From the IMG/VR virus record IMGVR_UViG_3300028283_000231: 64,000 nt of DNA; one strand, 5' to 3'. The DNA is from a virus. Its lineage: Duplodnaviria; Caudoviricetes. Numbering within the stretch: the stretch's first letter is position 1; every line of letters starts with the position of its first letter. The position numbers and the translations under genes were made by a program. This document shows, piece by piece, positions 1 through 42,242 of the stretch. The notes below the pieces were generated by a model, which ran no database searches, was not told the origin of the DNA, and worked only from the letters and a program-made list of their open reading frames with translations.

Positions 1-308
1 CCAAAATATTCGATGATATGATTAGAAATTATAGTAATATATGGAAAATTGAAAAATTGAGTTCTTTGGCATCTAAAGAATTTCCAAATAATTTTTTTGA
101 TTTCATATATATTGACGCCAATCACGATTACGATTCTGTTAAACAGGATATTATAAATTGGATCGATAAAATTAAAATTGATGGATATGTTGGTGGACAT
201 GACTATCACCAAGGATCTGGTGGAGTATATGAAGCAACGCAAGAATTATTTAAAGATAAAGATTTGAAAATATATCCAGATTCTAGTTGGATATTAAAAA
301 TAAATTAA
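1..308 (+). CDS. Class I SAM methyltransferase (Methyltransf_24-like), 5'-partial
   Basis: FDFIYIDANHDY...GGHDY motif. The frame is open from the window start (aaa ata ttc gat gat atg). Confidence 0.75.
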   Translation, partial: KIFDDMIRNYSNIWKIEKLSSLASKEFPNNFFDFIYIDANHDYDSVKQDIINWIDKIKIDGYVGGHDYHQGSGGVYEATQELFKDKDLKIYPDSSWILKIN

Positions 309-312
309 AACG

Positions 313-1482
313 ATGTTATTAGAAATAGCTAGGAAGTACAATGTAGATAAAGCCGAATTAGGACAATCGGGAGGGCATAATTATATCCCCTTCTACGAAC
401 AAATTTTAAGAGATAAGAAAGAATCAGCTAAAAATGTATTAGAAATAGGTGTGGCTGGAGGAGCATCATTGAAAATGTGGAGAGACTATTTTGAAAATGC
501 CACTATATATGGATGGGACATTTTAGACACATCACATTTAAACGAAGACAGAATAAAAACTTTTATTATCGATCAATCCAATATAAATAGTATAAATAAT
601 TTTTTCTTTAAAAATGATATAACATTTGATTATATTATAGATGATGGTAGTCATATGCTTAAAGATCAAATGATTAGTTTATTCGAATTATTTCCAAAAT
701 TAACGAAAGGTGGGATTTATATCATAGAGGATTTGTGGCATCATAATATAGATAGTTTTTTAAAATTGGGCAAAAAGGATGAATATATTGAATTAATTGA
801 TCCTGTTATTAAAAGTTTTGCGACAGAGGATAAAATAAAATTTTTACTGGATAATCTTATTTGTTGCCAAAAAAATAACGTCATTTTTTCTTCAGCTATA
901 GATAAAACAGATCATCATTTTTATACTTTCTATAAAAAAATAATATGTAATGTGGGTCTAAGATATAATATTTTTAATAAATATTTAAACGAATATTTCG
1001 TTGAAACTGGTAGTTTTAATGGTGGTGGGATATCGTGGGCTTTAGATTCTGGGTTTAAAAATGTGGTATCAATAGAACTATCTGAATTATATTATAATAA
1101 ATGCAAAGAATTATATAAAACTAAAGATAACGTTTTTTTATATTTGGGTGATAGTAGTATAATTTTAGGTGATATTATAAGGAGTATAAATACTCCAATG
1201 ACTTTCTGGTTAGATGGGCATTATTCTGGTGGTGATACAGCGATAGGTAAATATAATAGTCCATTAATGCAAGAGCTGGATATAATAAAAGATCATCCTA
1301 TAAAGACTCATACAATATTGATAGATGATATGAGGTGTTGGAATGACTTACATGAATTCAATAAAAATGATATTCTCAATAAATTAGAAGAGATCAATAA
1401 AGATTATGAAATAACTTACGAAGACGGATTTATAGATAAAGACATTTTAGTGGCAAAAATAAATAATAAAAATGTTTTATAG
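313..1482 (+). CDS. Tandem two-domain SAM methyltransferase-like protein
   Basis: N-half: VLEIGVAGGASLKMW, IIDDGSH, GGIYIIEDL. C-half: FVETGS, FWLDGHYSGG, ILIDD. Confidence 0.7.
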   Translation: MLLEIARKYNVDKAELGQSGGHNYIPFYEQILRDKKESAKNVLEIGVAGGASLKMWRDYFENATIYGWDILDTSHLNEDRIKTFIIDQSNINSINNFFFKNDITFDYIIDDGSHMLKDQMISLFELFPKLTKGGIYIIEDLWHHNIDSFLKLGKKDEYIELIDPVIKSFATEDKIKFLLDNLICCQKNNVIFSSAIDKTDHHFYTFYKKIICNVGLRYNIFNKYLNEYFVETGSFNGGGISWALDSGFKNVVSIELSELYYNKCKELYKTKDNVFLYLGDSSIILGDIIRSINTPMTFWLDGHYSGGDTAIGKYNSPLMQELDIIKDHPIKTHTILIDDMRCWNDLHEFNKNDILNKLEEINKDYEITYEDGFIDKDILVAKINNKNVL

Positions 1483-2077
1483 TCAACAAAAAGAAGATGA
1501 GATACTTTATAATAAGTATTTAAATTATAAAAATGGATTTTTTATTGAAATTGGGGCGATGAATGGTATAGACTATTCAAATACAAAATTTTTCGAAGAC
1601 AATCTTGTTTGGAATGGTATTTTAATTGAACCAACTAGTCAATTTATCGAATTGGAAAAGAATAGACCAAAGTGTTTAAATTTCAATCTTGCCATTTCTG
1701 AAAAAATTGGTGAAATTGAATTTATAGGGAAAGGAGCCCTTAGTGGATGTAAAGAAAGTATGAGTGATTCGTATAAAAAATTATGGGGAATAGATGAAAA
1801 ACTATCATATAAAGTAAAATCTGTCCCTTTCCATGTTCTGACAAGTAAAATAGATATAAAAAAAGTAGATCTATTTTCAATTGATGTAGAAGGCGGAGAG
1901 ATAGAAGTTTTAAATACATTTGATTGGAGAATACCAGTTTATATTATTCTTATTGAACTAGATACACACAATCCAGATAAAGATGAAAAATGTAGAGAAA
2001 TTTTAAGAAAAAGGGGATTTGAATTCAAATTGAGAATAGGGTCTAATGATGTTTGGATAAATAGAGAGAATATATGA
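1472..2077 (+). CDS. FkbM-family methyltransferase
   Basis: GFFIEIGAMNG..SNT, GILIEP, LFSIDVEGGEIEVL. Confidence 0.85.
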   Translation: MFYSQQKEDEILYNKYLNYKNGFFIEIGAMNGIDYSNTKFFEDNLVWNGILIEPTSQFIELEKNRPKCLNFNLAISEKIGEIEFIGKGALSGCKESMSDSYKKLWGIDEKLSYKVKSVPFHVLTSKIDIKKVDLFSIDVEGGEIEVLNTFDWRIPVYIILIELDTHNPDKDEKCREILRKRGFEFKLRIGSNDVWINRENI

Positions 2078-2946
2078 AAATAATTTACGTTATATTATTG
2101 GATGAAAGTGAAAGGCATCATTGTTATTTACCAGATGTTTTAAAAACTTGGATAGTGCCATCTATTAATCAGTGCCATAGATTAAATCCAGATTGTGAAA
2201 TAGTTGTCATAACTGATACTAAAATATTCGAAAATGAATTACCGTTTGTTAAATTTTTTGAAATTGAAGATTATGTGGATGATGATATTATGTGGTTCAA
2301 AAATAATTATATTCATTTGAGCACAAATCAATATCAATTTGAAAAAAATGCCATCCTTAGATTTTTATATCTTAAAAATTTCTGTGTTAAACATAAAATA
2401 GATCATTTTCTTCATTTGGAACCAGATGTATTAGTTTTTAGTGACATTTTGGAAGATATGATTTTTTTTAAAAATTATAATATTACATTGATACATCATA
2501 TAGGCGCTGGTGTTTGTTTCTTTAATAACGCTACAAATGTTTTACTCGAATTTTTTACATATATAAAAAATTCATATACTATTCCACAGTTAAATCCAAG
2601 AGCCTTTGACATTAAATCTGAAAAGGAATTTTATGATCACAATATAAAAAATGAAATTGGAGCAGGTGGTGTATCTGATATGCATTTTTGGAATCTTTAT
2701 AATTCTTTACACGAAAATGAATCGTTTTGCGAAATGGATAGAAATATAGATAATATTTTTTATCACACCTTTTTAGTGGATCAAACAAAAGAACAAAATT
2801 GGTTAAAGGAAAATAATTTGAAAAAATTATTTCTTGAAGAAGACAAATGTTACGGTTTTCACGTTGATAAAAAAGTTAGAATTAAATATTTACACTGCCA
2901 CGGAAATAACAAATTGTTGATACCAAAAATAATAAACAATGAATGA
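2074..2946 (+). CDS. Putative GT-A glycosyltransferase
   Basis: ILRFLYL..F, HLEPDVL (DxD-like), YLHCHG C-terminal motif, glycan-cluster context. Confidence 0.45.
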   Translation: MKIIYVILLDESERHHCYLPDVLKTWIVPSINQCHRLNPDCEIVVITDTKIFENELPFVKFFEIEDYVDDDIMWFKNNYIHLSTNQYQFEKNAILRFLYLKNFCVKHKIDHFLHLEPDVLVFSDILEDMIFFKNYNITLIHHIGAGVCFFNNATNVLLEFFTYIKNSYTIPQLNPRAFDIKSEKEFYDHNIKNEIGAGGVSDMHFWNLYNSLHENESFCEMDRNIDNIFYHTFLVDQTKEQNWLKENNLKKLFLEEDKCYGFHVDKKVRIKYLHCHGNNKLLIPKIINNE

Positions 2947-3860
2947 TATACAATTTAAAAAATGTTTACCTAAGTAGAAATGGATCTATATTAGATGAAG
3001 ATTTCAATCTGATAGAAGATGCGTCAGAATTGTTCATCAAATGGGATTCTTTTGGTTATGAAAATAATATACCACTTAAAGATTATACTGAAAATAAAAT
3101 AAAGAGCGGTAACTTAAAAAAATTAGATAATAAACAATATATTTATGCTTATCCGTATCATAACATATACGTATATGGCCATTTATGGGATTCTTTTAGA
3201 CAAATAAAAGAGATTGAGGAAAATAATATAAAAGGTAGTCTTTTATTGGGGATTGAATCGCGACATATAACTAATCTATATCATCATCTGGATATATTCG
3301 GATATGATAGGTCGAAGACCTTAAGTTGTGATTGTATGAATTATGTTTATTTTGTTCCAAATTTAATAGTGCCTGTTGATGGAGTCTACATGTCAAGATT
3401 GAATAAAGACGAATTTGAATGGCTAAGAAATAGATATTTTTATAAAAATAAATTAATGAATGTATCAAAGATTAACAACGATGATAAATTTAAATTGTAT
3501 TTATCAAGAGGATCTTCAAATTCAGATTATAGAAGTGTTATAAATGATAATGAGGTGTCTGACTTTTTATTAAAGAATGGATATATAAAAATAACAGGGA
3601 ACGAATCTTTAGAAGAACATATATACTATTTTTCTAATGCCACACATATCATTGGCTATCACGGTGCAATATTTAAAAATTGTATATTTTGCTGTAAACA
3701 ACCAATAATACATGAATTCTGTTCAAAAAATTGTGAAAAATGTTTTTTAAATGTTAGTGATACATGTGAAATAACAAAAAATCATCAGCAGATCAAAATA
3801 GATTCCGATGATAGATATAATACTACAATAGATATTGAAATAATAAAAAATATAATATGA
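2943..3860 (+). CDS. GT61 / DUF563-like glycosyltransferase
   Basis: YGHL.D, KLYLSRG...RSVIN..EV, FSNATHIIGYHGA. Confidence 0.7.
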   Translation: MIYNLKNVYLSRNGSILDEDFNLIEDASELFIKWDSFGYENNIPLKDYTENKIKSGNLKKLDNKQYIYAYPYHNIYVYGHLWDSFRQIKEIEENNIKGSLLLGIESRHITNLYHHLDIFGYDRSKTLSCDCMNYVYFVPNLIVPVDGVYMSRLNKDEFEWLRNRYFYKNKLMNVSKINNDDKFKLYLSRGSSNSDYRSVINDNEVSDFLLKNGYIKITGNESLEEHIYYFSNATHIIGYHGAIFKNCIFCCKQPIIHEFCSKNCEKCFLNVSDTCEITKNHQQIKIDSDDRYNTTIDIEIIKNII

Positions 3861-4627
3861 AAAAAATATCATTTATTCCAAATATGGGCGCCAGATTTGG
3901 TCATCAGTTCGTAGAATGGTTATATGGATATATCTATTGTAGAAATAATAATTATATATTCTATCATCATGAATTTATCGGTAAATCTCCAAAATTTGAT
4001 AATTTTTTAAATTTATCTCACGGTGAGAGAAATTTTAATTCCTACGGTGAAAAAATCATAACAATGAAAGATATGTCAATAGAGGAATATTTGTCTTCAA
4101 ATTGCATGGAACTATATCTTTATGATTATTATAATGATGATTCAAGAGTTTATGCTACAAACGATATGATGATAGAAGATGATATTAGAAATATATTAAG
4201 AAATAAATATTTCTCAAATCATAATAAAATTAATTATGATAATACTATATCAGTGCATATTAGAAGAGATGACGTTTTTAAAGATAGTCCTTATTGGGCC
4301 AGTAGATATATACCAATAGAATATTTTATTAATATTCTAAACGACTTGCATGATGAGTATCCATCATTTGATGTGAGAATTTTTTCGAGTAATGTAGACG
4401 AATCTTTTAAAGATATAAAAAATATTAAATATGAAAATATATATTATCACATAGATGACAGTATAGAGAACACATTAAATTATTTGATAAAATCTAAAAT
4501 ATTAATAACCAGTAACAGCGGTATATCTTTTATACCAACTTTATTATCGAAAGTGGATAACATTAAAATATGTCAGGATAATTTCTGGCTTAAATGGCCA
4601 AAAGAATGCATTATAAAAAATACTTAA
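3857..4627 (+). CDS. GT11-like (alpha-1,2-fucosyltransferase-like) glycosyltransferase
   Basis: GARFGHQF at the N-terminus, SVHIRRDD, ILITSNSGISF. Confidence 0.6.
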   Translation: MKKISFIPNMGARFGHQFVEWLYGYIYCRNNNYIFYHHEFIGKSPKFDNFLNLSHGERNFNSYGEKIITMKDMSIEEYLSSNCMELYLYDYYNDDSRVYATNDMMIEDDIRNILRNKYFSNHNKINYDNTISVHIRRDDVFKDSPYWASRYIPIEYFINILNDLHDEYPSFDVRIFSSNVDESFKDIKNIKYENIYYHIDDSIENTLNYLIKSKILITSNSGISFIPTLLSKVDNIKICQDNFWLKWPKECIIKNT

Positions 4628-4632
4628 ATTGA

Positions 4633-7600
4633 ATGAAAAAATTACAAAGGAAAATAATAGATGATACTGAACATCTTAGACCATTACCAAAATATCCTAC
4701 TTATCCACCATATCATGTTGGATATTACATAGAAGATTATTTTTTCAACTATTATTTGAAAAATAATGTGGAGACAGATAGAATTTATCTACCAATTTTC
4801 TGGACCAGTTGTTATAACAATACTTGGTATGATAATAATATAGTTATGCCAGATATACAATCTTTTTTAAATACGCTAGATCCAAATTTAAAATATTTTA
4901 CTGTTTGTCAACACGAACGCGCGCCTCAAGAAAAATTACCAAATAACACTTTAATTTTTTCTTCCAGTGGTAAAATTCACGCTGATAATAAAAGTAATAA
5001 TCATGTTCCTATTCCACTTGTTTGTTCACCTATAAAAAACATAAAATTGAACAAAAAAAGAGATATTTTTTGTTCTTTTATTGGGGCAAATACACATAAG
5101 ATAAGAAAGGATATGTTCAACGCATTAAAAAGTGAAGACAGATATTATCTATCTTTAAATGAATGGAATATTGACACACCAAAACCAAAAGAAGATGAAT
5201 TCAAAAATATTACAGAGAGATCTGTTTTCGCCTTATCACCAAGAGGAGATGGACCTACTAGTTTCAGAACTTATGAGGCTATGCAGTTAGGAGCAATACC
5301 CGTTTATATTTATGATTATAAATGGATACCATATGAAAATAAAATAAATTGGAATGATTTATGTATTTTTATACATGAAAACGAAATACCTCATTTGAAA
5401 GATATTTTAGAACATATACCCGAAGATAAAATAGAAAAAATGAGATTAGAAATTAAAAGGGTATATAACGATTTTTTCACATTGCAATCAGTGTCTAAAA
5501 ATATAATATCACATTTAAAGGAAGAAAAAATGAGATTGATCACATTTTATACAGAATCACATAAAGAACTCATAGAAAATTATTTTTTACCAACGATTGA
5601 AAAATTCAACGAATTTGATGTTAAAATAGAAAATTTCGATCAGAACTGTGAAGGTTATTACAGATGTGATGGTTGGGGTGATGCCATGTTAAATAAAGTA
5701 AATCTAATTATTAGAACTATAAAAGAAACATGGGGAGATTATTTTGTTTATTCTGATTGTGATATTATGTTTTTTGATAAAATAAAAGATCAATTATTGA
5801 AATCAATAAGAAATCATGATATATCATTTCAACACGATGGTAATAGTGTGTGTGCTGGATTTTTTATATGTAAATCAAATGAAAACACTTTAAAATTGTG
5901 GGAAACTGTGAAAGAAAATACATATAAATTTAATGACGATCAATTAACTTTAAATCAATATCTTGATATTATAAATTATAATAGACTACCAATATCGTTT
6001 TTTACTATTGGTAATGTTAACGGATTTAAGAGATGGGATGGAGAGAAAAGTTACTCCATACCAAAAAATATAGTTATGTTTCATGCCAATTGGACGATTG
6101 GAGTTAATAGAAAAATTGAACTTTTTAATTATATCATAGACAATATGAAACATAAAATTGATCTTTCGGACATGAAGATTGAATATTTCAATAAAAAAAC
6201 AGTACACAATTTTAATAATGGGAAAGTACTTATTGGCGATTTGGTTGATGGAAATATCACTAATCCAATATATTTGAACATTAATATAATTAGTGATATT
6301 GTTTTTAATGAGAAAGGTATTAATGTATTTTATAATTACTACGATGTAAAAAACAAAGATAGGAAAAAAGAGTTAAAATATTGTTTGGATATGTTATTAT
6401 CAAATAAAAAAATAAGTAACCTTTATATACTATGTAGTAATAAATTAGACATTGAACAAAATAACGTGACAAAAATAGATTTCAATTTTGAGCAACCATC
6501 GTTTAAAGATTATTTTAATATTATCAATTTTTATTCAAGTGATGAGAGTATTAATATTCTTTTGAATTCTGACTGTTTTGTTGATGAAAAGAATATAGAT
6601 TTAATATCAAAAAATATAAAAGAAAATGAAGTTTATTGTTTATCCAGATGGGATATAGTTTCGAATAAAGATTTTAAAAGTACTCATTATGATATAGAGT
6701 GTAGTCAAGACGCTTGGATTAAAATAGGTAAATTTTCTAATCGTATAGAGGGTAATTATAAAATGGGTGTACCAGGTTGTGATAACGCGATTGCCTACGA
6801 ATTTCAAAAAATTGGATATAAAATATCTAATCCTTCCAAAGATATTAAAATATACCATTACCATTTATCTGATGTTAGAACATATGGAGTATCACATGAT
6901 GATAAAGAAAGTCATAGAATTCGAAGACCTTATGTATTCGTTCAAAGTTCGAAACTCGATGAAAATACAATAACAAAAAAAATAATATCTGATGATGTAA
7001 CTGAGAAAAAAGAAAATTTCAACTCATCTACTTTGAATAAATTCGTTGATAATGTTTATCTTATAAATCTTAAAAGAAGAGATGATAGATTAAACCATAT
7101 GATAAATGAATTTGATAAAATAAATGTTTCTTTTAAAAGGTTCAACGCAATAGATGGTAAAATTATGGGTGATGGTCTTAAATCTTCTCAAGTGGCATGT
7201 TTAAGAAGTCATGTTGGAGTTATTAGAGACGCTTTAAGGATGGGATATAATAGGTTTGTTATTTTTGAAGATGACGTCATATTTTGTGACGATTTTGAAA
7301 AAAGGTTCAAGTATTATTCTGAGAATGTGCCAGACGATTGGGATATAATGTATCTTGGATGTAATTTACATAGTTCCAGCAATCCAAAATTCATTAAAAA
7401 TTTTATCTATAAAGTAGAAGAATGTTACGGGTGCTTTGCTATGATTTTAAATAATAAAAATGGATTGTTTGAAAAAATTATAGAAATAACTAAAGACGAA
7501 GAAAAACCAATAGATAATTATTATCACGAACAAATATTGAAAGAATTTAAAGCTTACGTATTTGCCCCATTTTTCGTTAAGACATTAAATACTATATCTG

Positions 7601-33303: not shown

Positions 33304-33991
33304 TCATTTTTTTGGAATTGATATGTAATCAATGTCATGCACTTGTTTAAGAGAATAGGATATACTTTTAAAAAATTTAACAATATCATCAGTAGATTTA
33401 TTATACATATTTAAATGTGCTTCAGCTATTTCAATCAAAATAATTGGTTTATTTCTTAATATTGTCCCCATCAAGTACAAATGGTTCGTAACCTTGTACG
33501 TCCATTTTAATTAAACTCACATTATCGTAACGCAAATCGTCTAATCTCACCTCATCCACTAATTCACCTTCGTTTGATATATGTGTATCACCTATATTTA
33601 ATAATCCATCCAAATAAAAATTCTGTCTTTCTATATGTGTTATACCATTCTTATCAGATAAGGCTTTATTAATAGCAATAATGTTATCAAATCCGTTTGC
33701 TATTATATTTGCACACAACTGGTAATAAACTATACGTTGTGGTTCGAACGCGTAGACTTTACCTTCTTCACCAACCATTTCTGCAAATTCAAGAGTATGA
33801 GCACCCAGATTAGCACCAATGTCTATTATATTGGTGCCCTTAAAATTATAATCTTTAATTGCTTCGTATAGATGAGGTTCCCATAATCTTCCTTCTCTTA
33901 TACAACTTGTTAATCCTATATCTTGTTTAAAAAGAAAATAATGTTTATCTCTAGATGAAACGTAGTCAATAGGTAATCTTTTCATAAACAA
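33304..33991 (-). pseudogene. FkbM-family methyltransferase with an apparent frameshift near 33466
   Basis: The ORF stops after KMDVQGYEPFVLDG-DNIKK. The +1 frame continues TILRNKPIILIE...IPKK for 53 aa to a TGA at 33304-33306, 9 nt before the next ATG. Confidence 0.7.
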
Positions 33992-34021
33992 TTTTGTTTT
34001 TTCGTTATATTATGTTTTAGT

Positions 34022-34888: not shown

Positions 34889-35975
34889 TTTATGGCATAA
34901 TGGTGATATTCATTTCACTAGGTCGTATATTAGAGATATAATGAAAAAAACAAATTTTGACGAATATCAATATTTGCATAACAATAATCCAGGTATATTA
35001 AGAGACATTCCTAATTTAGTATATGGTAAAACAAATGAATATTGTCAAGATACTACAATTGTATTAAGAGTTAATAACGATTTGTACATAAATGTTTGGA
35101 TAGGTTTTTATAATTCTTTATTTAACGAAGAAGTGGATTCACCGGTACGTACTGTATCTGGTGTTCTTTATAGATTTTTCACACACATATACGAAAAATT
35201 GGGAATAAAACTTGGAGACGAAAGAGATTACGTGCCTTTTATAGAATTTGATTCATTTGATAAAACTAAAATAGATACCTTTATTGAAACTAATAAATAT
35301 CCAAAAGTTCTTGTCGTAAACGGTCCTGTATTTGCCTACCAATCTGTGATAGAAATCAATTTCATGGATATAATAAACAGATTATCAGAAGATTATCCAT
35401 ATGTTCAATTTCTTTTAACTGAGCGAATAGCGTTAGATAAACCTAATGTTTTATTCACGTCGGATATAGCACCTGAGTTAATGGATATATCTTATTTATC
35501 GATGTTTTGTGACGTGATATTTGGGAGATCAACGGGTCCCTATGTTTTTAGTTGGATGGAAAAGAATTTAAAAGATACACAGAAAACTTACATTTGTGCT
35601 TCTTCAAAATTAAGGCATATAACTTGGGGGACTAAATCAAATTGTAAAAATGTTTGGATAGAAGATTATAATGAAATTTATAATATAGTTAAAGACGAGT
35701 TAAAATTTCTATCACCCATAACAGTAAATGATTTTACAATTAGATGTGTAGTTGATAGAATATATGTAAAGCCTAATATAGATATTACCCCGGAACACGA
35801 CGTGAGTTTTTATTTCTATACAGGAGATAGGAAAAATTGGGAACATAAGAATTACGTGGCATTAGCTGGAATGGAAAGCTGGTATATTCCTTATCACGGT
35901 TATAATTGTGAACATAATCGTATAAAAATGGAATTTAGAACCGCTAAAAATTTATTATTCTTTTTAGATTTATAA
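34866..35975 (+). CDS. Putative GT-B protein with a C-terminal beta-rich domain; paralog of 26186-27295
   Basis: KLIFYN..HNGDIHFTR, ISYLSMFCDVIFGRSTGPY. Confidence 0.5.
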   Translation: MGKLIFYNLWHNGDIHFTRSYIRDIMKKTNFDEYQYLHNNNPGILRDIPNLVYGKTNEYCQDTTIVLRVNNDLYINVWIGFYNSLFNEEVDSPVRTVSGVLYRFFTHIYEKLGIKLGDERDYVPFIEFDSFDKTKIDTFIETNKYPKVLVVNGPVFAYQSVIEINFMDIINRLSEDYPYVQFLLTERIALDKPNVLFTSDIAPELMDISYLSMFCDVIFGRSTGPYVFSWMEKNLKDTQKTYICASSKLRHITWGTKSNCKNVWIEDYNEIYNIVKDELKFLSPITVNDFTIRCVVDRIYVKPNIDITPEHDVSFYFYTGDRKNWEHKNYVALAGMESWYIPYHGYNCEHNRIKMEFRTAKNLLFFLDL

Positions 35976-36605
35976 CTTCTTCAAGATGTAATTATTAAGA
36001 GTGCCAAGTGAATCGTAAATTTTTACCACTTTGCCTTCTACCATTTTATAATCGTAATAAATAGGTATATGTTGTTCCAAACTACCAATTATTTCGAACC
36101 CTTTAAAGTTATCTATATTTCTCATGTAGTCTACGGCTTTTTTAACATCGGGTGAATATTTATCCATGTAATCATCAAATACAATGTAACCACCAACTTC
36201 TACTAGCTCTTTATAAACAGAATAATCTTTAATAACGTCAAAATAGTTATGACTTCCGTCAATGAAAATCAAATCAAATTTGCCTTGAATTATTTCTAAA
36301 ATGGATTTATCAGTAGAATTAGTTTGAAATATACCAGCGTTGATTTTATATTTATCTAAATTTTTATATAATAATTCTCTCACTTTAATGTCTATACCAT
36401 ATACCTCTTTTACTTTTGGATGCTGAGCAACGTAACAAAAACTAGCACCGTCCCATAATCCAATTTCTAAATATCTTATATCTCTATCTAATTGATCTAT
36501 AAGATATTCTAAGATAAAATAATGTTCGTGGAATCTTTCTCCTTCGAAATCTTCGAGATATGGTTGCATTTTATCTAAATAATATTGTTGTTTTTCTTTA
36601 GTCAT
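35970..36605 (-). CDS. Class I SAM methyltransferase (Methyltransf_24-like)
   Basis: YLEIGLWDGAS, LIFIDGSHNY, GGYIVFDDY. Confidence 0.8.
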   Translation of the reverse strand: MTKEKQQYYLDKMQPYLEDFEGERFHEHYFILEYLIDQLDRDIRYLEIGLWDGASFCYVAQHPKVKEVYGIDIKVRELLYKNLDKYKINAGIFQTNSTDKSILEIIQGKFDLIFIDGSHNYFDVIKDYSVYKELVEVGGYIVFDDYMDKYSPDVKKAVDYMRNIDNFKGFEIIGSLEQHIPIYYDYKMVEGKVVKIYDSLGTLNNYILKKL

Positions 36606-37651
36606 TTTGCCTTTAAGTAATTTATTATATAATCTAAATCGCTATTGTTCATATCAGCATTCAAAGGGAAACAAACGATCTCTTCGTATAATTTATTAGA
36701 GTTAGTAAATCCGATTAAAGGTTCGTAATATTTCTTATATTCTACGTCTTTAATGTCTATTTCTTCTTTAAATGATTTGATAGGTAAACATGATATTAAA
36801 CTATTATCGTAAGGTTTAATTAATTCAAATCTAGTTTCTCTTAATCTGTTTTCGAAATATTTTGCCAATTCTTTATGAATATGATCAATGGCGTAAAAAT
36901 TGTCTAAATGTTGAAGAATGAAGGCAGCAGATATATCGCTCATTCTCCAGTTAGATCCGTGTACAGACCATTTCTTAATTGATTTAGTATATCCAAAATT
37001 TATTGATTTTCTAACATCTGCTTCGTATTCTCTATCAACTATAATAACTCCGCCTTCACCGAAACCGAGTGGTTTCGTGTGATGTAAACTAATTATAGAA
37101 CCAACTCCGAAATTATTTATATTTAAAAAATTGTAAAAAGTGTATGGGGCAGTAGCACTATCAAAGATAAGGTATTTATCGTTATCTACACTCCATTTAA
37201 TAAATTTTTCAACTTCACTAGCAAATCCAAACATATTAGTAACTATAACACCGTTAATGTTATCTTTGATATGTTCTAAAGAATTTAGATCTGGTGATAT
37301 ATCATTATAGTCTATATCTACTATAACAGAATTTCTCAGCACACCTTGAGCTGAAACTGGGAATGTATAATCTTGGGTCGCCCATCGTGTTTCAACTCCA
37401 AGTTTATTATTTATACCTGAAACAAGAGCGTGTAGTGCGGCGGTTCCGCTACAAGTTGGAATTACAACTTTACTGGAACTAATTTTTAATATAGATCTAA
37501 GTCTATCGCTTAGCATTTTTTGCAAAGGCCCGTCGTTACTAAATTGATTTTCTTTAATAGAAAATTCCATATAGTGTTTAACTCTATCCCAGTTTATTTC
37601 TTTCTTATTTACCCAATTTATTCTCATTTTGTCCAGTCTATTGTTGCACAA
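36602..37651 (-). CDS. DegT/DnrJ/EryC1/StrS-family sugar aminotransferase
   Basis: CSGTAALHAL, TFPVS, IFDSA, SLHHTKPLGFGEGG (PLP lysine), NWRMSDISAA. Confidence 0.85.
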   Translation of the reverse strand: MCNNRLDKMRINWVNKKEINWDRVKHYMEFSIKENQFSNDGPLQKMLSDRLRSILKISSSKVVIPTCSGTAALHALVSGINNKLGVETRWATQDYTFPVSAQGVLRNSVIVDIDYNDISPDLNSLEHIKDNINGVIVTNMFGFASEVEKFIKWSVDNDKYLIFDSATAPYTFYNFLNINNFGVGSIISLHHTKPLGFGEGGVIIVDREYEADVRKSINFGYTKSIKKWSVHGSNWRMSDISAAFILQHLDNFYAIDHIHKELAKYFENRLRETRFELIKPYDNSLISCLPIKSFKEEIDIKDVEYKKYYEPLIGFTNSNKLYEEIVCFPLNADMNNSDLDYIINYLKAK

Positions 37652-38340
37652 TATCCTTCAGCTAAATGATAAGCAGTAGCTTTGGGTATATGATAAGTAT
37701 CTAATTTGCCTTCTTTTACGTCTTTATATATTCTGTCCCAAAGATCAGCGTCAGAAGCTTTTTTCTCACCTTTATCTATCATATTAATATATCTATGTTT
37801 TATTTTACTTATATTAAAAGTTACAGTCTGGTGAATGACTTGTCTGCCTTTTGGAGGTAAATTGTTAATAACATCGTCAGTTAAATTAGGTGGGAAAAGG
37901 TTTTTAGGCCTTACGTAGTGAGCCTTTGAATAAACAAAAGATACTGTTGGATATTTAAGATAGGTTTTATTGTGTAGTTCAAGGTGATTAACTTCCCATT
38001 TGTCCTCGTAATCAAAATGAGCGTAATAATCTATTCCTTCTTTTTCTAATAACTCTATCCCTTTATTAAGAGCGTTTGTGCCACTACATAACCAAAGATC
38101 GTTACCAGTATAACGACTTCTTTCGTCTGCTACGGGTAAATTCACATATGTTATCATACTTGATGGAACGCGCGAAGTAATAAATTCTAGTTCTTCTGGT
38201 TTATCGTAATCGTCTCCAATTAGAAATAGTTTCCAATCAGAGTGTGTTTGCATCATTATATTTTGTATGGCTCTATATAAGAAGACTATTGTTTGTCCGT
38301 CTTTTCTATAATAAGTGGGTAGTACTATTCCGAATTTCAT
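37624..38340 (-). CDS. GT2 family glycosyltransferase
   Basis: GIVLPTY, LIGDD, ALNKG, AHFDYEDKW..NHL. Confidence 0.7.
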   Translation of the reverse strand: MKFGIVLPTYYRKDGQTIVFLYRAIQNIMMQTHSDWKLFLIGDDYDKPEELEFITSRVPSSMITYVNLPVADERSRYTGNDLWLCSGTNALNKGIELLEKEGIDYYAHFDYEDKWEVNHLELHNKTYLKYPTVSFVYSKAHYVRPKNLFPPNLTDDVINNLPPKGRQVIHQTVTFNISKIKHRYINMIDKGEKKASDADLWDRIYKDVKEGKLDTYHIPKATAYHLAEGYCATIDWTK

Positions 38341-39071
38341 TGTTTAGTTAATTCAATTTTGATGAATATTTTATCCCCGTTATCGTTAATAAAATAAGCA
38401 TTTTTAAAATCCCCGTGCGATAAAGCCTTCAATTTAGTTATATGATTAAAAAATGTGTCTTTATCGTTTATATCAATCTTTCCAAGATCGTTAAAATCTT
38501 TCTTGTAATTTATATTTCCTTCATCTGGTATTCTAACGAAAGAATAATTCTTATTAATTATATCTATCAGATTTCTATCAAGGAGTTTCATTTCAACGTC
38601 AACTACTTTTTCGTAAACTGAAAGAGAAGTGTCGTGTGGTTCTATATATATTCGCTCTTGGGTTATAATGGGCCCGTGATCAATCTTATTATCTATTTCG
38701 TGTATAGTTACACCAAAAGGTAGTCCATTTAATATGGAAAACACTTGTGGGTACCATCCTCTATTATAAGGGTTATAACCTGGATGTATATTAATACATC
38801 TTACTTTTTCTATGAGTTCTTTTGGAAATAATTGTTTACAATGTAACGAGAAGATAATTTCGTATTTATATAAACTTTTATCTCTAACGTCAATTGGTTC
38901 AACTGGTTTGTACATCCAAGAGTTAAAAGATTTATGATAATCAGCACAAAAGTCGTAATTATTATAGCTCCAACCGTAATCAAAGTCTTCTCTAAGTTTT
39001 TTAGATACGACTATTTGATTAAATCTTGCTAATAATTCTATTTTATCCGTGATTAAAAGGAATTTTCTCAT
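38337..39071 (-). CDS. Sugar N-formyltransferase (VioF/WbtJ-like dTDP-4-amino-4,6-dideoxyhexose formyltransferase)
   Basis: SLHCKQLFP, CINIHPGYNPYNRGWYPQVFSI, GVTIHEID..IDHGPII, ALSHGDFKNAYF. Confidence 0.85.
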   Translation of the reverse strand: MRKFLLITDKIELLARFNQIVVSKKLREDFDYGWSYNNYDFCADYHKSFNSWMYKPVEPIDVRDKSLYKYEIIFSLHCKQLFPKELIEKVRCINIHPGYNPYNRGWYPQVFSILNGLPFGVTIHEIDNKIDHGPIITQERIYIEPHDTSLSVYEKVVDVEMKLLDRNLIDIINKNYSFVRIPDEGNINYKKDFNDLGKIDINDKDTFFNHITKLKALSHGDFKNAYFINDNGDKIFIKIELTKQ

Positions 39072-39110: not shown

Positions 39111-39905
39111 TTATCCTCTACGGTGCATTGATGGAGGTCCCGATTTTTTAAGAAAATCCTCTATTGTTTTATAAAATCCTTTCTTTTTAGGTTTTTCAGG
39201 TGGAGGGTTATGTCTTCTAGCTTGTTCTTCTTCGAAGTTTCTTCTATGTAAGGCTTCAATATTAGCTTCCCTACCTCTTTCGAATTCTCTGACTCTACGT
39301 TCCTGGTCTCTTTGTAACATTGCTATAACATCTGCTGGTGGTATATGACGATGAGCCATTCTTGCTCTACCAGCGTCTCTTACATCTGGTGCTGGAATAG
39401 GTTCTACCATATCATCTTCAACGTCCCAATCCTCTTCACCGTAGGCTGCTTCCACTGGATCTCTTTCTGGTTTTTTAACTTTTTCTGGGGTATCCCATAC
39501 TTCTTCACCATAAGGATCAACGTCTGCATGTACTTTTCTTTCTAAATCTTCGTGATAACGAGCACATATATTTAATATAACATCTAAATATTTAGTTCTA
39601 TTATAAATATCACTTTTAAATTTTCTACTATGTGTAGTATTACCTTGTTTGTCTTTTATTATCAATTCGTAAATCTCTGAAAATTCATCGGGACAAGTTT
39701 TAATTATTTCAAAATCGCAATAGGTGTCCTCACACGTGGCAGATTTATTGATGATAACAAACCCTTCATCTTCTAATAATTTCTTTTCTGCCAGTCCAAA
39801 ACTTTTTCCTTTTTCTGGATCAAAAGGCATAAAGGTATCGCCTATTTCGAAATTAGCAGGAGCTTTTCTTTTTAGTTCTTCAAATAATTTAAAACTCTTT
39901 ATCAT
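39111..39905 (-). CDS. Putative virion internal protein with a capsid-targeting-like N-terminus and two YGEExW motifs
   Basis: MIKSFKLFEE; DPYGEEVW and AAYGEEDW; TTAATATATAC upstream. Confidence 0.5.
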   Translation of the reverse strand: MIKSFKLFEELKRKAPANFEIGDTFMPFDPEKGKSFGLAEKKLLEDEGFVIINKSATCEDTYCDFEIIKTCPDEFSEIYELIIKDKQGNTTHSRKFKSDIYNRTKYLDVILNICARYHEDLERKVHADVDPYGEEVWDTPEKVKKPERDPVEAAYGEEDWDVEDDMVEPIPAPDVRDAGRARMAHRHIPPADVIAMLQRDQERRVREFERGREANIEALHRRNFEEEQARRHNPPPEKPKKKGFYKTIEDFLKKSGPPSMHRRG

Positions 39906-40238: not shown

Positions 40239-40300
40239 TTTACCATAAAATTTCTTGAAATGATTTCAAGTGTAAATATTCAAAAAGAATATTCCTATAA

Positions 40301-41374
40301 ATGGAATTTAAAAAGCAATTAGAATGTATGAAAAAAAGGGCGTTAATAACAGGTATAACAGGAATGGATGGTTCTCACTTATCAGAGCTTCTTTTAGAAA
40401 AAGGTTACGAAGTACACGGTATAATTAGACGTTCCAGTTCATTTAATACTGGAAGAATTGATCATATTTACCCCCAATTAAAACTTCATTACGGTGACGT
40501 TACTGATACTCTTTCAATAGAACACGTCATTCAAGACATTAAACCAGATGAATTATATAATCTGGCAGCCCAATCCCACGTAGCAGTTTCTTTTGAACTC
40601 CCTGAATATACAGGTCAAGTAGACGCATTAGGTGTACTTAGAATATTAGAAACAGTTAGACGTTACTCTCCACATACAAAGATATATCAAGCATCTACAT
40701 CAGAATTGTTTGGTAAAGTAGAAGAAGTACCACAAAAAGAAACAACACCATTCCATCCCAGATCTCCTTACGGTGTAGCTAAACTTTACGCTTACTGGAT
40801 TTGTAAAAATTACAGAGAAGCTTATAACTTATTCATCTCTAACGGTATATTATTTAATCACGAAGGCGAGCGTAGAGGTGAAACATTCGTAACAAGAAAA
40901 ATTACAAAAGGTTTGGTTGAGTGGACAAAAACAAAAACCCCTATACATTTAGGTAATTTAAATGCTAAAAGAGATTGGGGTTACGCTAAAGATTTTGTAT
41001 ATGGTATGTATCTCATGTTACAACAAGATAAACCAGATGATTTCGTTTTAGCTACAGGTGAAGCACATTCGAATAAAGAATTTATTGAAGAAGCTTGTAA
41101 ATACGTTAATATTGATATAGTATGGCGTGGAGAAGGAGTTAATGAAATTGGGGTAGATAAAAATTCTGGTGACGCTATTGTGATACAAGTTGATCCAAAA
41201 TATTTCAGACCAGCAGAAGTTGATCTTTTACTTGGTGATCCAACAAAGGCCAAGGAAGTTCTTGGTTGGGAAGCTAAAACTAAATTTAAAGATTTGGTTA
41301 AACTCATGATGGAAAGTGATTTAGATAAATATGGTGAAAAAAATCTATGGCAAAAATTTTTTAAGAAGGGATAA
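40301..41374 (+). CDS. gmd: GDP-mannose 4,6-dehydratase
   Basis: ALITGITGMDGSHL, YNLAAQSHV, YQASTSELFG, PRSPYGVAKLY, LFNHEGERRGETFVTRKIT, RPAEVDLLLGD. The start may be 40328. Confidence 0.95.
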   Translation: MEFKKQLECMKKRALITGITGMDGSHLSELLLEKGYEVHGIIRRSSSFNTGRIDHIYPQLKLHYGDVTDTLSIEHVIQDIKPDELYNLAAQSHVAVSFELPEYTGQVDALGVLRILETVRRYSPHTKIYQASTSELFGKVEEVPQKETTPFHPRSPYGVAKLYAYWICKNYREAYNLFISNGILFNHEGERRGETFVTRKITKGLVEWTKTKTPIHLGNLNAKRDWGYAKDFVYGMYLMLQQDKPDDFVLATGEAHSNKEFIEEACKYVNIDIVWRGEGVNEIGVDKNSGDAIVIQVDPKYFRPAEVDLLLGDPTKAKEVLGWEAKTKFKDLVKLMMESDLDKYGEKNLWQKFFKKG

Positions 41375-41378
41375 GTTA

Positions 41379-42242
41379 ATGAAAATACCAACCGAAAATG
41401 ATTTTTATGTTAGAATAGAAAAAGAGCCTAATAAGGTTATTATTAATTCTGTTAATTTAAATGACGCTGGTGGTAGTGAGCATTTAAATAAAATATTAAA
41501 AATAGATTTTATTTTAAATGGCAACATTTCTTATTCACTTTCATGTAATTTTTCTGATCCGAATATTAATCATTGGATAGTACCATATGGTTATTCAAAT
41601 GATAATGACGATTTAATATTAAATTTTTACGACGAATCTAGACATTTATTTGATATAAAAATTGATAAATTATATGGTAATCACATTTATAATAAAATAG
41701 ATGGTTGGTTTGATTTCCAAAGTGTTTATAAAGAAGCTGTTCAAAACGGAAAAGACGGAGATCATTTTGTTGAAATAGGTTCTTGGTTAGGGCGTTCTGG
41801 TTCTTTTATGGCGACTGAAATAAAAAATTCAGGCAAAAAAATAAAATTTGATTGTATAGACACTTGGCAAGGATCAGGTGAAGTATATCACGAAGAATAT
41901 TTGAAAGATAATAGTTTATACGATAATTTTTTAAAAAACATATCACCTTTAAAAGAGTACATAAATCCAATAGTAGAATATTCTTATATAGCTCCAAAAT
42001 ATTACGAAGATTTGTCTTTAGATTTTGTTTTTATAGACGCTGATCATAGTTACGAGATAGCTAAAAAAGATATAACAGAATGGTACCCAAAAGTAAAAAT
42101 AGGCGGAACAATCGCTGGTCACGATTATTATAATTCATGGCACGTTCAAAAAGCTGTGAATGAAATATTTGGAGAAAATATAACACAAAATAGATTATCA
42201 TGGATTCATAAAAAAGAGAGCGATCTCTTTCCACTAAATTGA
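41379..42242 (+). CDS. N-terminal beta-rich domain plus Methyltransf_24-like domain
   Basis: FVEIGSWLGRS, CIDTW.G, FVFIDADHSYE, GGTIAGHDY. The ATG at 41379 is preferred over 41331. Confidence 0.8.
   Translation: MKIPTENDFYVRIEKEPNKVIINSVNLNDAGGSEHLNKILKIDFILNGNISYSLSCNFSDPNINHWIVPYGYSNDNDDLILNFYDESRHLFDIKIDKLYGNHIYNKIDGWFDFQSVYKEAVQNGKDGDHFVEIGSWLGRSGSFMATEIKNSGKKIKFDCIDTWQGSGEVYHEEYLKDNSLYDNFLKNISPLKEYINPIVEYSYIAPKYYEDLSLDFVFIDADHSYEIAKKDITEWYPKVKIGGTIAGHDYYNSWHVQKAVNEIFGENITQNRLSWIHKKESDLFPLN

What the first reader, a model, noticed from the sequence alone, without database searches (positions are those of the whole stretch)
1..42242. A >42-kb glycan-building locus with no export machinery, in an apparent jumbo phage
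Seen: roughly 40 contiguous sugar genes (GT2 several times; GT9, GT11, GT25, GT31, GT47, GT61, GT77 and STELLO-like; Gmd; SDR epimerase; aminotransferase; formyltransferase; acetyltransferase; about 15 methyltransferase domains). The locus extends past the left edge. No multi-pass Wzx, Wzy or ABC exporter and no WbaP/WecA-type initiating transferase is recognisable. Known: bacterial O-antigen and capsule loci need these; mimivirus and chlorovirus glycosylate their virions with virus-encoded sugar pathways; some mycobacteriophages glycosylate their capsids. Inference: this is a cytoplasmic assembly line for a complex, heavily methylated glycan on the virion (or on phage DNA or host surface), much larger than the few-gene systems I know of in phages.
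Basis: partly seen in the sequence, partly recalled or inferred. Interest (0 to 1): 0.8.

Follow-up and report, generated by a model that had tools for sequence, protein, structure and literature searches.

The report
Giant sugar-chain factory in a megaphage
A giant lake-water phage, close kin of the 735-kb record-size phage, devotes about 44 kb (some 42 genes, about 20 sugar-transferring domains and 14 methylating domains) to building a complex sugar chain entirely inside the host cell with no export machinery, most likely to coat its own particle, which would make it the largest virus-encoded glycosylation system I could find described.

Summary
Window 1-42242 is a dense block of soluble glycosyltransferases, methyltransferases and rare-sugar enzymes. 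Only GT11 could not be confirmed; a GT10 gene lies just left of the window. The window is 88% identical in DNA and syntenic to the 735,411-bp uncultured phage LR756501.1, which has a T4-type portal, capsid protein and terminase. No real ORF in the locus has a membrane segment. The whole 735-kb relative has no Wzx, Wzy, WbaP/WecA-type or ABC-2 exporter gene.

New here:
- The locus starts only 1.65 kb left of the window, so it spans about 43.9 kb.
- An 8.8-kb cassette at its left end is swapped between the two phages, while the flanking genes stay 94-99% identical.
- The phage's only NusG gene sits inside the locus in five related phages.
- In the relative, two further GT2 genes lie in the capsid and terminase operons.

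Best reading (confidence about 0.5): a cytoplasmic, giant-virus-like assembly line that glycosylates virion proteins. Main rival (about 0.3): it remodels the host envelope glycan using host carriers and flippases. The acceptor is not shown.

This scan has noted similar all-soluble loci in other jumbo phages. I found no published description.

The parts
1..308 (+). C-terminal part of a 177-aa Methyltransf_24 methyltransferase. The gene starts left of the window. Upstream of it lie a 183-aa ORF and the GT10 fucosyltransferase that opens the operon, 1646 bp left of window base 1.
   Evidence: Pfam. L009 gene table. L009 is 100% identical to the window over 3333 bp.
313..4627 (+). Variable cassette genes: a 389-aa protein with weak methyltransferase matches, an FkbM methyltransferase (1472-2077), a 290-aa protein with a weak DXD-type GT match (2074-2946), GT61 (2943-3860) and a 256-aa unknown (3857-4627). 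The genes at 1472-4627 have no counterpart in the 735-kb relative.
   Evidence: Pfam. tblastn against the relative.
4633..7935 (+). 1100-aa triple glycosyltransferase (GT47 exostosin-like, GT77 Nucleotid_trans, GT25). It is only 56% identical to the relative's copy, while the next gene is 94% identical.
   Evidence: Pfam. tblastn. Only about 20 metagenomic homologues.
7940..10754 (+). GT2 (7940-8608), a 226-aa unknown (8605-9285), and Fringe/GT31 fused to a DUF8361 GT-A-like domain (9282-10754).
   Evidence: Pfam. Atlas feature and structure matches to DUF8361, a mainly viral family.
10744..16665 (+). Branched-sugar module: C-methyltransferase (10744-11967), Methyltransf_24 (11972-12529), a 216-aa unknown (12526-13176), a short E1-beta-like ThDP subunit (13173-13703), radical SAM/SPASM (13720-14772), a short E1-alpha-like subunit (14747-15391) and a second C-methyltransferase (15439-16665).
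   Evidence: Pfam. NCBIfam. 90-98% identical in the relative.
16944..21713 (+). DUF1848 (16944-17753), a double FkbM methyltransferase (17769-18992), a 226-aa unknown (19250-19930), an SDR closest to dTDP-glucose 4,6-dehydratase (19945-20907) and a divergent SDR epimerase/reductase (20904-21713).
   Evidence: Pfam. NCBIfam. Atlas (score 0.99, TM 0.8-0.9 to SDR clusters).
21938..23194 (+). NusG unit: a 118-aa ORF, NusG (22297-22845, 182 aa) and a 114-aa ORF. This is the only NusG in the 735-kb relative. It sits inside the glycan locus in five related phage loci.
   Evidence: TIGR00922 165 bits against a cut-off of 135.7; UpxY, RfaH and LoaP models all below their cut-offs. Single copy. Synteny in L011, L027 and L028. 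50-55% identical to Bacteroidales NusG.
23644..26206 (+). GT2 fused to Methyltransf_24 (23644-25230) and a STELLO-like glycosyltransferase (25193-26206).
   Evidence: Pfam.
26186..28027 (-). 369-aa GT-B glycosyltransferase with a C-terminal beta-sandwich (26186-27295), and an FkbM methyltransferase (27311-28027).
   Evidence: AF2 model, pLDDT 93. Foldseek best matches are GT9 heptosyltransferases and POMGNT2. Pfam.
28024..33294 (-). 1756-aa multi-enzyme: hexapeptide acyltransferase, Methyltransf_24, GT2, DUF8361-like, GT2, DUF8361-like, and a C-terminal GT-A (glycogenin/GT8-like) plus beta-sandwich.
   Evidence: Pfam. Internal paralogy. AF2 of residues 1400-1756, pLDDT 93. Foldseek.
33449..35975 (.). 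FkbM methyltransferase (33449-33991, minus strand), GT9-like (34022-34888, plus strand) and a second 369-aa GT-B paralogue (34866-35975, plus strand).
   Evidence: Pfam. Paralogy 37-39%.
35970..39071 (-). Amino-sugar module: Methyltransf_24 (35970-36605), DegT-type aminotransferase (36602-37651), a weak GT2-like protein (37624-38340) and a dTDP-4-amino-4,6-dideoxyglucose (viosamine) N-formyltransferase (38337-39071).
   Evidence: Pfam. NCBIfam (NF005755, 260 bits against a cut-off of 238).
39111..39905 (-). 264-aa non-enzymatic protein carrying DPYGEEVW and AAYGEEDW tags. It is fast-evolving (56% identical to the relative) and looks like an interloper, not a sugar enzyme.
   Evidence: Translation. 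tblastn. The tag family was noted earlier in this scan.
40301..42242 (+). GDP-mannose 4,6-dehydratase (40301-41374) and Methyltransf_24 (41331-42242). This is the right end of the locus.
   Evidence: TIGR01472 517 bits against a cut-off of 415. Pfam. The genes to the right have no sugar domains.

Best explanation
This is a megaphage-encoded, wholly cytoplasmic glycan assembly line of about 43.9 kb and about 42 genes.

Proposed mechanism:
1. It draws on host primary nucleotide sugars (GDP-mannose, dTDP- or UDP-glucose).
2. It tailors them with its own enzymes into rare donors. Gmd gives GDP-4-keto-6-deoxymannose and hence 6-deoxyhexoses. A dehydratase-like SDR, a DegT aminotransferase and a VioF-type formyltransferase give dTDP-N-formylviosamine. 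Two C-methyltransferases, a stand-alone E1 alpha/beta pair and a radical SAM enzyme give C-branched sugars.
3. About 20 soluble glycosyltransferase domains, many fused into 1100-aa and 1756-aa multi-enzymes, join the sugars.
4. At least a dozen O-methyltransferase domains and an acyltransferase domain decorate the chain.
5. The acceptor is most likely the phage's own virion proteins, glycosylated in the cytoplasm before or during assembly, as in chloroviruses, Megavirinae and mycobacteriophages.
6. The exposed end of the glycan is set by an 8.8-kb cassette that differs between strains.
7. A phage NusG inside the locus probably keeps RNA polymerase processive across the long operons.

Shown: gene content, solubility, absence of export genes, phage origin, the cassette swap, NusG linkage, and GT genes in the head and packaging operons of the relative.

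Inferred: the pathway products, the acceptor and the role of NusG.
For: (1) Domain inventory.

(2) No hydrophobic segment in any real ORF of the locus.

(3) The complete 735-kb relative has no Polysacc_synt/Wzx, Bac_transf, Glycos_transf_4, Wzy_C or ABC2_membrane match, while the control genomes do. Its one strong ABC ATPase belongs to a TauB/NitT-type importer with a BPD-type permease.

(4) Phage identity: about 88% DNA identity and synteny with LR756501.1. That record has a T4-type portal, prohead protease, gp23-like capsid protein and gp17-like terminase.

(5) In that relative a GT2 gene starts about 116 nt after the capsid gene on the same strand. A strain with 99% identical capsid protein keeps the pair, with about 0.9 kb between the two genes. 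Another GT2, with a radical SAM gene, lies directly upstream of terL in one operon.

(6) The left-end cassette (window about -831 to 7935) is replaced or diverged (no hit to 58%), between GT10 at 95% and GT2 at 94% identity. This is the pattern of a surface-exposed, diversifying glycan.

(7) The GT families are largely virus-specific. DUF8361 and the 369-aa GT-B family have mostly viral clusters. The GT-B family was found in only 2 MAG contigs among 185,579 species genomes.

(8) Architecture parallels validated giant-virus enzymes and clusters: PBCV-1 A064R is GT-GT-MT (PMC9614988); Megavirinae have clade-specific clusters of 6-33 genes with multi-GT proteins and viosamine (PMC10117803).

(9) NusG sits inside the locus in five phage loci, at NusG identities down to 62%. 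Eleven contig-length coincidences link the NusG and GT-B homologue lists.
Against: - No glycan, glycoprotein or acceptor site has been observed. All function is inferred from sequence and predicted folds.
- Most bacterial O-antigen and LPS-core glycosyltransferases are also soluble or peripheral, so solubility does not discriminate.
- GT9 and GT25 are classic LPS-core/LOS families.
- The capsid-GT2 adjacency is seen only in the closest relatives. GT2 homologues at 33% identity are not next to a recognisable gp23-type capsid gene.
- The head-operon GT2 genes were seen in the relative and in a near-identical strain, not in the window itself.
- The big locus is not next to structural genes: about 220 kb from the capsid gene in the relative.
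- The lead that the 369-aa GT-B proteins resemble TibC-type protein heptosyltransferases was not borne out by the fold search.
- NusG scores as a housekeeping-type NusG, and its position could be inherited synteny with no functional link.
Confidence: 0.5

Rival explanations
1. Host-envelope remodelling. The phage enzymes extend host lipid A-core (LOS-type, flipped by host MsbA) or host undecaprenyl-linked O-antigen, capsule or O-glycan precursors. Host initiating transferases, flippases and ligases do the rest. The result is a changed cell surface during a long infection, for example to block superinfection.
For: - GT9-like and GT25 domains are typical of LPS-core/LOS synthesis.
- LOS-type assembly needs no Wzx, Wzy or initiating phosphoglycosyl transferase, so the missing export genes are compatible with it.
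- The published reading of cyanophage sugar clusters is host-surface modification against competing phages (PMC7824862).
- Al-Shayeb et al. suggest that huge-phage surface proteins alter susceptibility to other phages (PMC7162821).
- A strain-variable cassette would also fit a host-surface antigen.
Against: - About 20 GT domains building a new glycan would have to be accepted by host flippases and ligases.
- Not one lipid-carrier-linked or membrane protein is encoded, in the locus or in 735 kb.
- GT2 genes sit in the capsid and terminase operons of the relative.
- The GT families are mostly virus-specific, not copies of Bacteroidota envelope loci.
Confidence: 0.3
2. DNA hypermodification. The locus glycosylates modified bases of the phage genome to evade restriction and CRISPR.
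For: Phage GTs that put one to a few sugars on 5-hydroxymethylpyrimidines are known (bioRxiv 10.1101/2023.12.21.572611, listed; summarised in PMC12619734). All enzymes here are cytoplasmic.
Against: - No base-hydroxymethylating enzyme, DNA kinase or T4-type DNA glucosyltransferase domain appeared in the Pfam scans of the window.
- About 20 GT domains, rare branched and N-formylated sugars and heavy O-methylation far exceed any known DNA glycan.
- GT families such as GT47, GT61, GT31 and GT10 act on glycans or proteins.
Confidence: 0.04
3. The product is a free or small-molecule-linked oligosaccharide: a glycosylated secondary metabolite, a storage or osmoprotective glycan, or a decoy. It is not attached to virion or envelope.
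For: C-methyltransferases, a stand-alone E1 alpha/beta pair, a radical SAM enzyme, DegT and O-methyltransferases are hallmarks of antibiotic deoxysugar pathways. Iyer et al. propose a sugar-derived metabolite for one cyanophage cluster (PMC7824862).
Against: No aglycone-building genes (PKS, NRPS, terpene) and no efflux pump are in the window. The number of GT domains points to a long heteroglycan. The strain-specific swap of terminal transferases fits an exposed antigen better.
Confidence: 0.06

Closest known systems
Megavirinae (Mimivirus, Moumouvirus, Tupanvirus) fibril glycosylation gene clusters (Notaro et al. 2022, PMC10117803)
   Same: Virus-encoded and clustered. They combine nucleotide-sugar tailoring enzymes for rare bacterial-type amino sugars (including viosamine) with multi-domain glycosyltransferases (three or four GT domains in one protein) and methyltransferases. 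Gene content is clade- or strain-specific, and no export machinery is involved.
   Different: Those are Nucleocytoviricota of amoebae with 6-33 genes; here it is a tailed phage of a predicted Bacteroidota host with about 42 genes. There the acceptor (fibril proteins) and the glycan structures are known experimentally; here they are not. Mimivirus makes UDP-N-acetylviosamine; the enzyme here matches the dTDP-viosamine N-formyltransferase model.
Chlorovirus PBCV-1 capsid (Vp54) glycosylation, e.g. A064R (Speciale et al. 2022, PMC9614988)
   Same: Soluble virus-encoded enzymes. GT and methyltransferase domains are fused in one protein. The glycans contain methylated 6-deoxyhexoses. Antigenic variants map to the terminal transferases, which compares with the GT2+Methyltransf_24 fusion, the 1756-aa protein and the swapped cassette here.
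   Different: The host is a eukaryotic alga and the chlorovirus gene set is far smaller. Activities there are proven biochemically.
Mycobacteriophage virion O-glycosylation (Freeman et al. 2023, as summarised in PMC12619734)
   Same: A tailed phage whose own GT genes glycosylate capsid and tail-tube subunits. In the relative of this window, GT2 genes lie in the capsid and terminase operons.
   Different: Those are few-gene cassettes. I detected no sequence relationship. Here there are 44 kb and dedicated sugar-tailoring pathways.
Cyanomyovirus sugar/LPS clusters (P-SSM2 type; Iyer, Anantharaman, Krishnan, Burroughs, Aravind 2021, PMC7824862)
   Same: T4-related large phages with polymorphic clusters of SDR epimerases/dehydratases, several GT families and O-methyltransferases. 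The nearest cultured-phage homologues of two proteins here are in the freshwater cyanophages S-CRM01 and S-SRM01.
   Different: Those clusters have about 15 genes and include sugar kinases and nucleotidyltransferases, which the 735-kb relative lacks. They are interpreted, without experiment, as modifying the host surface.
Bacterial O-antigen and capsule loci, and their NusG-family regulators (RfaH, UpxY)
   Same: The same enzyme families. Very long co-directional operons. A NusG-family gene is physically tied to a polysaccharide locus.
   Different: No initiating transferase, flippase, polymerase, ligase or ABC exporter. The NusG here passes the housekeeping NusG model and fails the UpxY, RfaH and LoaP models. 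It sits in the middle of the locus, not at its 5' end.

Membership tests
Wzx/Wzy-dependent O-antigen or capsule locus | Initiating phosphoglycosyl transferase (WbaP/Bac_transf or WecA/Glycos_transf_4) | tested here: not met
   No TM protein in the locus. No PF02397 or PF00953 match in the 735-kb relative, while controls were positive.
Wzx/Wzy-dependent O-antigen or capsule locus | Wzx flippase and Wzy polymerase / O-antigen ligase type membrane proteins | tested here: not met
   No PF01943 or PF04932 match in the relative. No multi-pass ORF in the locus.
ABC-transporter-dependent polysaccharide locus | Wzm-type ABC-2 permease with a Wzt ATPase | tested here: not met
   No PF01061 match. The only strong ABC ATPase, about 310 kb away in the relative, is paired with a BPD-type importer permease and lipoproteins.
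Synthase-dependent polysaccharide system | Processive GT2 with integral membrane channel domains | tested here: not met
   None of the GT2-bearing proteins has a hydrophobic segment.
Virus-encoded autonomous glycosylation (giant-virus type) | Virus genome encodes soluble glycosyltransferases together with nucleotide-sugar tailoring enzymes, clustered | tested here: met
   Viral origin.
Virus-encoded autonomous glycosylation (giant-virus type) | The glycan is attached to virion structural proteins | not testable with these tools
   Only indirect evidence: GT2 genes in the capsid and terminase operons of the relative.
Tailed phage (Caudoviricetes), Mahaphage-type huge phage | Large terminase, portal and HK97/T4-fold major capsid protein in the genome | tested here: met
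   Found in the syntenic relative LR756501.1, about 88% identical in DNA: Portal_T4 (E 1e-69), Gp23 (E 2e-25) and gp17-like TerL (E 4e-26). The window itself carries SbcC/SbcD and homing-endonuclease-like genes. That LR756501.1 is the 735-kb genome of Al-Shayeb et al. 2020 is inferred from its length alone.
Specialised NusG paralogues of polysaccharide operons (RfaH, UpxY, LoaP) | Sequence membership in the paralogue family as opposed to housekeeping NusG | tested here: not met
   TIGR00922 NusG 165 bits (cut-off 135.7). UpxY 59 (cut-off 100), RfaH 49 (144.5), LoaP 92 (125).
Specialised NusG paralogues of polysaccharide operons (RfaH, UpxY, LoaP) | Conserved physical linkage to a long glycan operon | tested here: met
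   Window, LR756501.1, L011, L027 and L028.
Phage DNA glycosylation system | Base-hydroxymethylating or base-modifying enzyme next to a DNA glycosyltransferase | tested here: inconclusive
   No such Pfam domain among the window ORFs. The rest of the genome was not scanned for these families.

The most novel reading that the evidence does not exclude
The largest known phages coat their capsids with a strain-variable, heavily methylated heteroglycan containing N-formylviosamine and C-branched sugars. Transferases encoded in the head and packaging operons start it, and a 44-kb locus with about 20 GT domains completes it. That locus is larger than any giant-virus glycosylation cluster. It carries its own captured NusG as an operon-dedicated processivity factor, an independent reinvention of the RfaH/UpxY principle by a virus.
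Probability: 0.3. Interest if true: 0.85.

Novelty: new variant of a known kind. Interest (0 to 1): 0.66.

Why it matters
- If the glycan sits on the virion, autonomous and elaborate virion glycosylation would no longer be special to giant eukaryotic viruses and a few mycobacteriophages. It would extend to the largest phages, on a scale (about 6% of a 735-kb genome) above the biggest giant-virus cluster.
- A sugar coat could explain how very large particles persist in lake water, avoid grazing or adsorption to decoys, or recognise hosts.
- The strain-specific cassette would be a phage 'serotype' locus.
- The locus is a rich source of soluble, multi-domain glycosyltransferases and rare-sugar enzymes, including virus-specific GT families (DUF8361 and a GT9-like GT-B with a beta-sandwich).
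- A housekeeping-type NusG captured from Bacteroidota and fixed inside the locus gives a testable case of a virus supplying its own elongation factor for very long operons.

Tried and rejected
- An exact-pattern search for the window in IMG/VR found nothing. No whole genome is held for the window. The left flank came from an ENA contig instead.
- tRNA and Rfam scans of the window were empty.
- The sigma-70 promoter and terminator scan was no better than shuffles in this 28% GC DNA. I did not attempt a late-promoter comparison with the head operon.
- The Atlas lead that the 369-aa proteins are TibC-like protein heptosyltransferases was not supported. The fold search gave generic GT9 and POMGNT2 matches, and no TibC in the top 50.
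- PDB sequence searches of six unknown ORFs gave nothing useful.
- A search for NusG relatives in IMG/VR by peptide patterns found none. The protein database search did find them.
- Capsid-GT2 adjacency was not seen in more distant phages.
The metatranscriptome run whose contigs hold 0.33 of the sampled words of 4633-12000 was therefore never laid. It is a hint of transcription, not evidence.
- I rejected a bacterial chromosome or plasmid origin, given synteny with a phage genome that carries portal, capsid and terminase genes.
- I rejected recent capture of a host locus. GC is uniform at 0.26-0.31 across the locus and its flanks, and the GT families are mostly viral.

Full report
**What the DNA is**

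The window has 26-35% GC throughout and no tRNA or Rfam match. A tblastn of its SbcC-like protein found LR756501.1/LR756503.1, an uncultured phage of 735,411 bp, at 93% identity. Megablast of 50 kb of the window found the same record at about 88% DNA identity in one syntenic block, record 278.5-333.4 kb. The record length matches the 735-kb genome, the largest reported by Al-Shayeb et al. 2020. They placed it in the Mahaphage clade and predicted a Bacteroidetes host (PMC7162821). I infer that identity from the length alone; the paper does not list the accession.

That record has a T4-type portal (E 1e-69), a prohead-protease-like protein, a gp23-like capsid protein (E 2e-25) and a gp17-like terminase (E 4e-26). 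The right third of the window (42.3-64 kb) holds SbcC/SbcD, homing-endonuclease-like genes, a DHH protein and many unknowns. The window's own proteins lie on a 208,481-bp contig. DNA runs that hold the stretch are lake-water metagenomes.

**The observation**

Pfam, NCBIfam, Atlas and two high-confidence AlphaFold models give the inventory listed under 'parts'. Of the 39 ORFs of at least 100 aa in 1-42242:
- 31 carry sugar- or methyl-transfer domains.
- 5 are unknown.
- 3 form a NusG unit.
- 1 is a tagged non-enzymatic protein.

The apparent intergenic gaps hold further small ORFs of 52-83 aa.

I count 19-20 glycosyltransferase-like domains:
- GT10, just left of the window.
- GT61.
- GT47, GT77 and GT25 in one 1100-aa protein.
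- Stand-alone or fused GT2 (7940-8608 and in 23644-25230).
- GT31 plus DUF8361 (9282-10754).
- STELLO-like.
- GT9.
- Two GT9-like GT-B paralogues with a C-terminal beta-sandwich.
- A weak GT2-like protein (37624-38340).
- Five in the 1756-aa protein.

There are 14 methyltransferase domains and one hexapeptide acyltransferase domain.

**Boundaries**

An ENA contig (L009) is 100% identical to the window over 3333 bp and adds 4965 bp on the left. The plus-strand operon starts with a GT10 fucosyltransferase 1646 bp left of window base 1, followed by a 183-aa ORF and the methyltransferase whose end is window 3-308. Beyond GT10 lie a divergently transcribed DeoC-type aldolase and a homing endonuclease. 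In the relative, DUF2828/VWA and RtcB follow. On the right the last sugar gene ends at 42242. The locus therefore spans about 43.9 kb, in five transcription blocks. The longest block is about 27.9 kb on the plus strand.

**No export or initiation machinery**

A hydropathy scan found no membrane-like segment in any real ORF of the locus. The complete 735-kb relative has no match to Wzx (Polysacc_synt), WbaP (Bac_transf), WecA/MraY (Glycos_transf_4), Wzy_C or ABC2_membrane, although 10-14 of the 14 control genomes matched each family. Its one good ABC ATPase belongs to a TauB/NitT-type importer.

The relative also has no NTP_transferase. This lineage therefore seems to depend on host primary nucleotide sugars. 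A more distant relative (L028) does carry a HAD plus NTP_transferase fusion.

**Predicted chemistry (inference from family assignments)**

- Gmd passes its equivalog cut-off (517 bits against 415).
- The formyltransferase passes the cut-off of the dTDP-4-amino-4,6-dideoxyglucose formyltransferase model (260 bits against 238).
- The adjacent DegT enzyme is closest to 4-aminotransferases of dTDP-4-keto-6-deoxyglucose.
- The SDR at 19945-20907 is closest to dTDP-glucose 4,6-dehydratase, but below the cut-off.

Together these predict 6-deoxyhexoses derived from GDP-4-keto-6-deoxymannose, and N-formylviosamine. Two NDP-hexose C-methyltransferases, a stand-alone short E1 alpha/beta pair and a radical SAM/SPASM enzyme predict C-branched sugars. 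The many Methyltransf_24, FkbM and TylF-like domains predict heavy O-methylation.

**Comparison with relatives**

Gene-by-gene tblastn against the relative shows 90-98% protein identity for almost all genes from 7940 to 42242; exceptions are listed below. The left end differs:
- GT10 is 95% identical.
- The 183-aa ORF and the genes at 1472-4627 have no counterpart in the relative.
- The 177-aa methyltransferase matches only paralogues, at 31-36%.
- The gene at 313-1482 matches at 58% over half its length.
- The triple GT is 56% identical.
- GT2 at 7940 is 94% identical again.

In the relative, the same slot holds GT2+MT, MT, GT2 and MT genes. This is an 8.8-kb cassette swap between conserved flanks, as at a serotype locus. 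The 1756-aa protein (83%) and the tagged protein at 39111-39905 (56%) are also less conserved.

More distant phage contigs keep the same kind of locus with different content: L011, L012, L027 and L028, from lake, groundwater and other metagenomes. They carry GT47, GT25, GT10, GT9, DUF8361, FkbM, C-methyltransferases, split transketolase/E1 genes, SDRs, DegT and mega-GT proteins of 1720-2165 aa.

The 369-aa GT-B family and DUF8361 fall in mostly viral clusters. The GT-B family was found in only two MAG contigs among 185,579 species genomes, though with a single search pattern. The triple GT has about 20 metagenomic homologues and no named relative except one partial 'Gracilibacteria' entry.

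**NusG**

The 182-aa protein at 22297-22845 passes the housekeeping NusG model and fails the UpxY, RfaH and LoaP models. It is the only NusG in the 735-kb relative. It lies inside the glycan locus in the window, LR756501.1, L011, L027 and L028, at NusG identities down to 62%. Eleven contigs in the NusG homologue list have the same lengths as contigs in the GT-B homologue list. From about 55% identity downward, the hits are Bacteroidales/Bacteroidetes NusG. This fits capture from the predicted host phylum.

I infer that it supports processive, Rho-resistant transcription of the long operons, working like RfaH or UpxY without belonging to those families. Inherited synteny without a functional link is the alternative.

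**The acceptor**

This is the open point. In favour of virion proteins:
- In the relative, 4 of 10 GT2 matches lie outside the locus.
- One of them starts about 116 nt after the capsid gene, in the portal-protease-capsid operon. It is kept in a strain with 99% identical capsid protein, there about 0.9 kb after the capsid gene.
- Another lies with a radical SAM gene directly upstream of terL. Earlier notes of this scan report that arrangement in other phages.
- The swapped terminal cassette suggests an exposed structure under diversifying selection.
- The multi-domain GT and methyltransferase architecture matches validated giant-virus enzymes.
- Two GT types end in beta-sandwich modules that could bind an acceptor.

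Against:
- LPS-core/LOS assembly and extension of lipid-linked host glycans also use soluble transferases and host flippases.
- GT9 and GT25 are LPS-core families.
- The capsid-GT2 adjacency does not extend to distant homologues.
- The big locus itself is not next to structural genes.

I put virion glycosylation at about 0.5, host-envelope remodelling at about 0.3, DNA at 0.04, a free or small-molecule glycoside at 0.06, and the rest on other acceptors.

**Literature and novelty**

- The Nature paper on huge phages does not contain 'glycosyl', 'polysaccharide' or 'NusG' in its main text.
- A 2025 preprint lists glycosyltransferase among the ten most abundant huge-phage structure clusters, under 'host manipulation', without describing loci.
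- Iyer et al. 2021 describe cyanophage clusters of about 15 genes and read them as host-surface modification.
- Megavirinae clusters reach 33 genes.
- Searches for megaphage/huge phage with glycan terms and for phage-encoded NusG found no description of this locus.

Earlier notes of this scan report comparable all-soluble loci in other jumbo phages, of 39 kb and 16.6 kb. The kind is therefore recurrent in this scan though unpublished. I rate it a new variant of a known kind: virus-encoded autonomous glycosylation.

Noticed in passing
window 44877-45764 and 47193-48104 (minus strand); 57039-57926: Homing-endonuclease-like genes (DUF7487, DUF723, DUF4379 treble-clef, NUMOD3). The first two have no counterpart in the 735-kb relative, while their neighbours are 88-94% identical, so they look like mobile insertions.
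   Followed up: partly
L027 3548-5806 and L028 10798-13401: In related phage loci the sugar C-methyltransferase (L027) is interrupted by LAGLIDADG-type domains, and the DegT aminotransferase (L028) by intein and LAGLIDADG-type domains. These look like inteins inside sugar-pathway enzymes.
   Followed up: no
window 16829-16990 (+): A 53-aa ORF just upstream of DUF1848 looks by eye like a ribbon-helix-helix DNA-binding protein. A 56-aa ORF sits at the matching place in L011, so it may be a small regulator inside the locus.
   Followed up: no
window 39111-39905 (-): A non-enzymatic 264-aa protein inside the sugar locus carries DPYGEEVW and AAYGEEDW motifs. This is the tag family that earlier notes report on about a tenth of the relative's proteins. 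It is only 56% identical to the relative's copy, although the flanking genes are 94-95% identical. Whether tagged proteins relate to the glycan is unknown.
   Followed up: partly
window 52251-52997 (+): Three adjacent small ORFs (121, 61 and 63 aa) with one to three strongly hydrophobic segments each. They are the only credible membrane proteins seen in the window, and could be a holin-like or other small membrane protein set.
   Followed up: no
LR756501.1 612.5-613.9 kb (L026 7546-9939, minus strand): An operon of a 240-aa unknown, a 234-aa GT2, a 317-aa radical SAM protein (weak viperin/anSME-like matches) and then the gp17-like terminase. It has the same layout as the radical SAM/GT islands upstream of terL noted in other phages by this scan.
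   Followed up: partly
LR756501.1 645.9-649.3 kb (L002): The relative encodes a TauB/NitT-type ABC importer (ATPase with a long acidic N-terminal extension, BPD-type permease) next to two lipoprotein-like ORFs. This is a nutrient uptake system in a phage.
   Followed up: no
L009 2430-3221 (minus strand; 1.7-2.5 kb left of window base 1): A DeoC/LacD-family aldolase, 99.6% identical in the relative, is transcribed divergently from the GT10 gene that opens the glycan operon. It may feed or belong to the sugar pathway.
   Followed up: no
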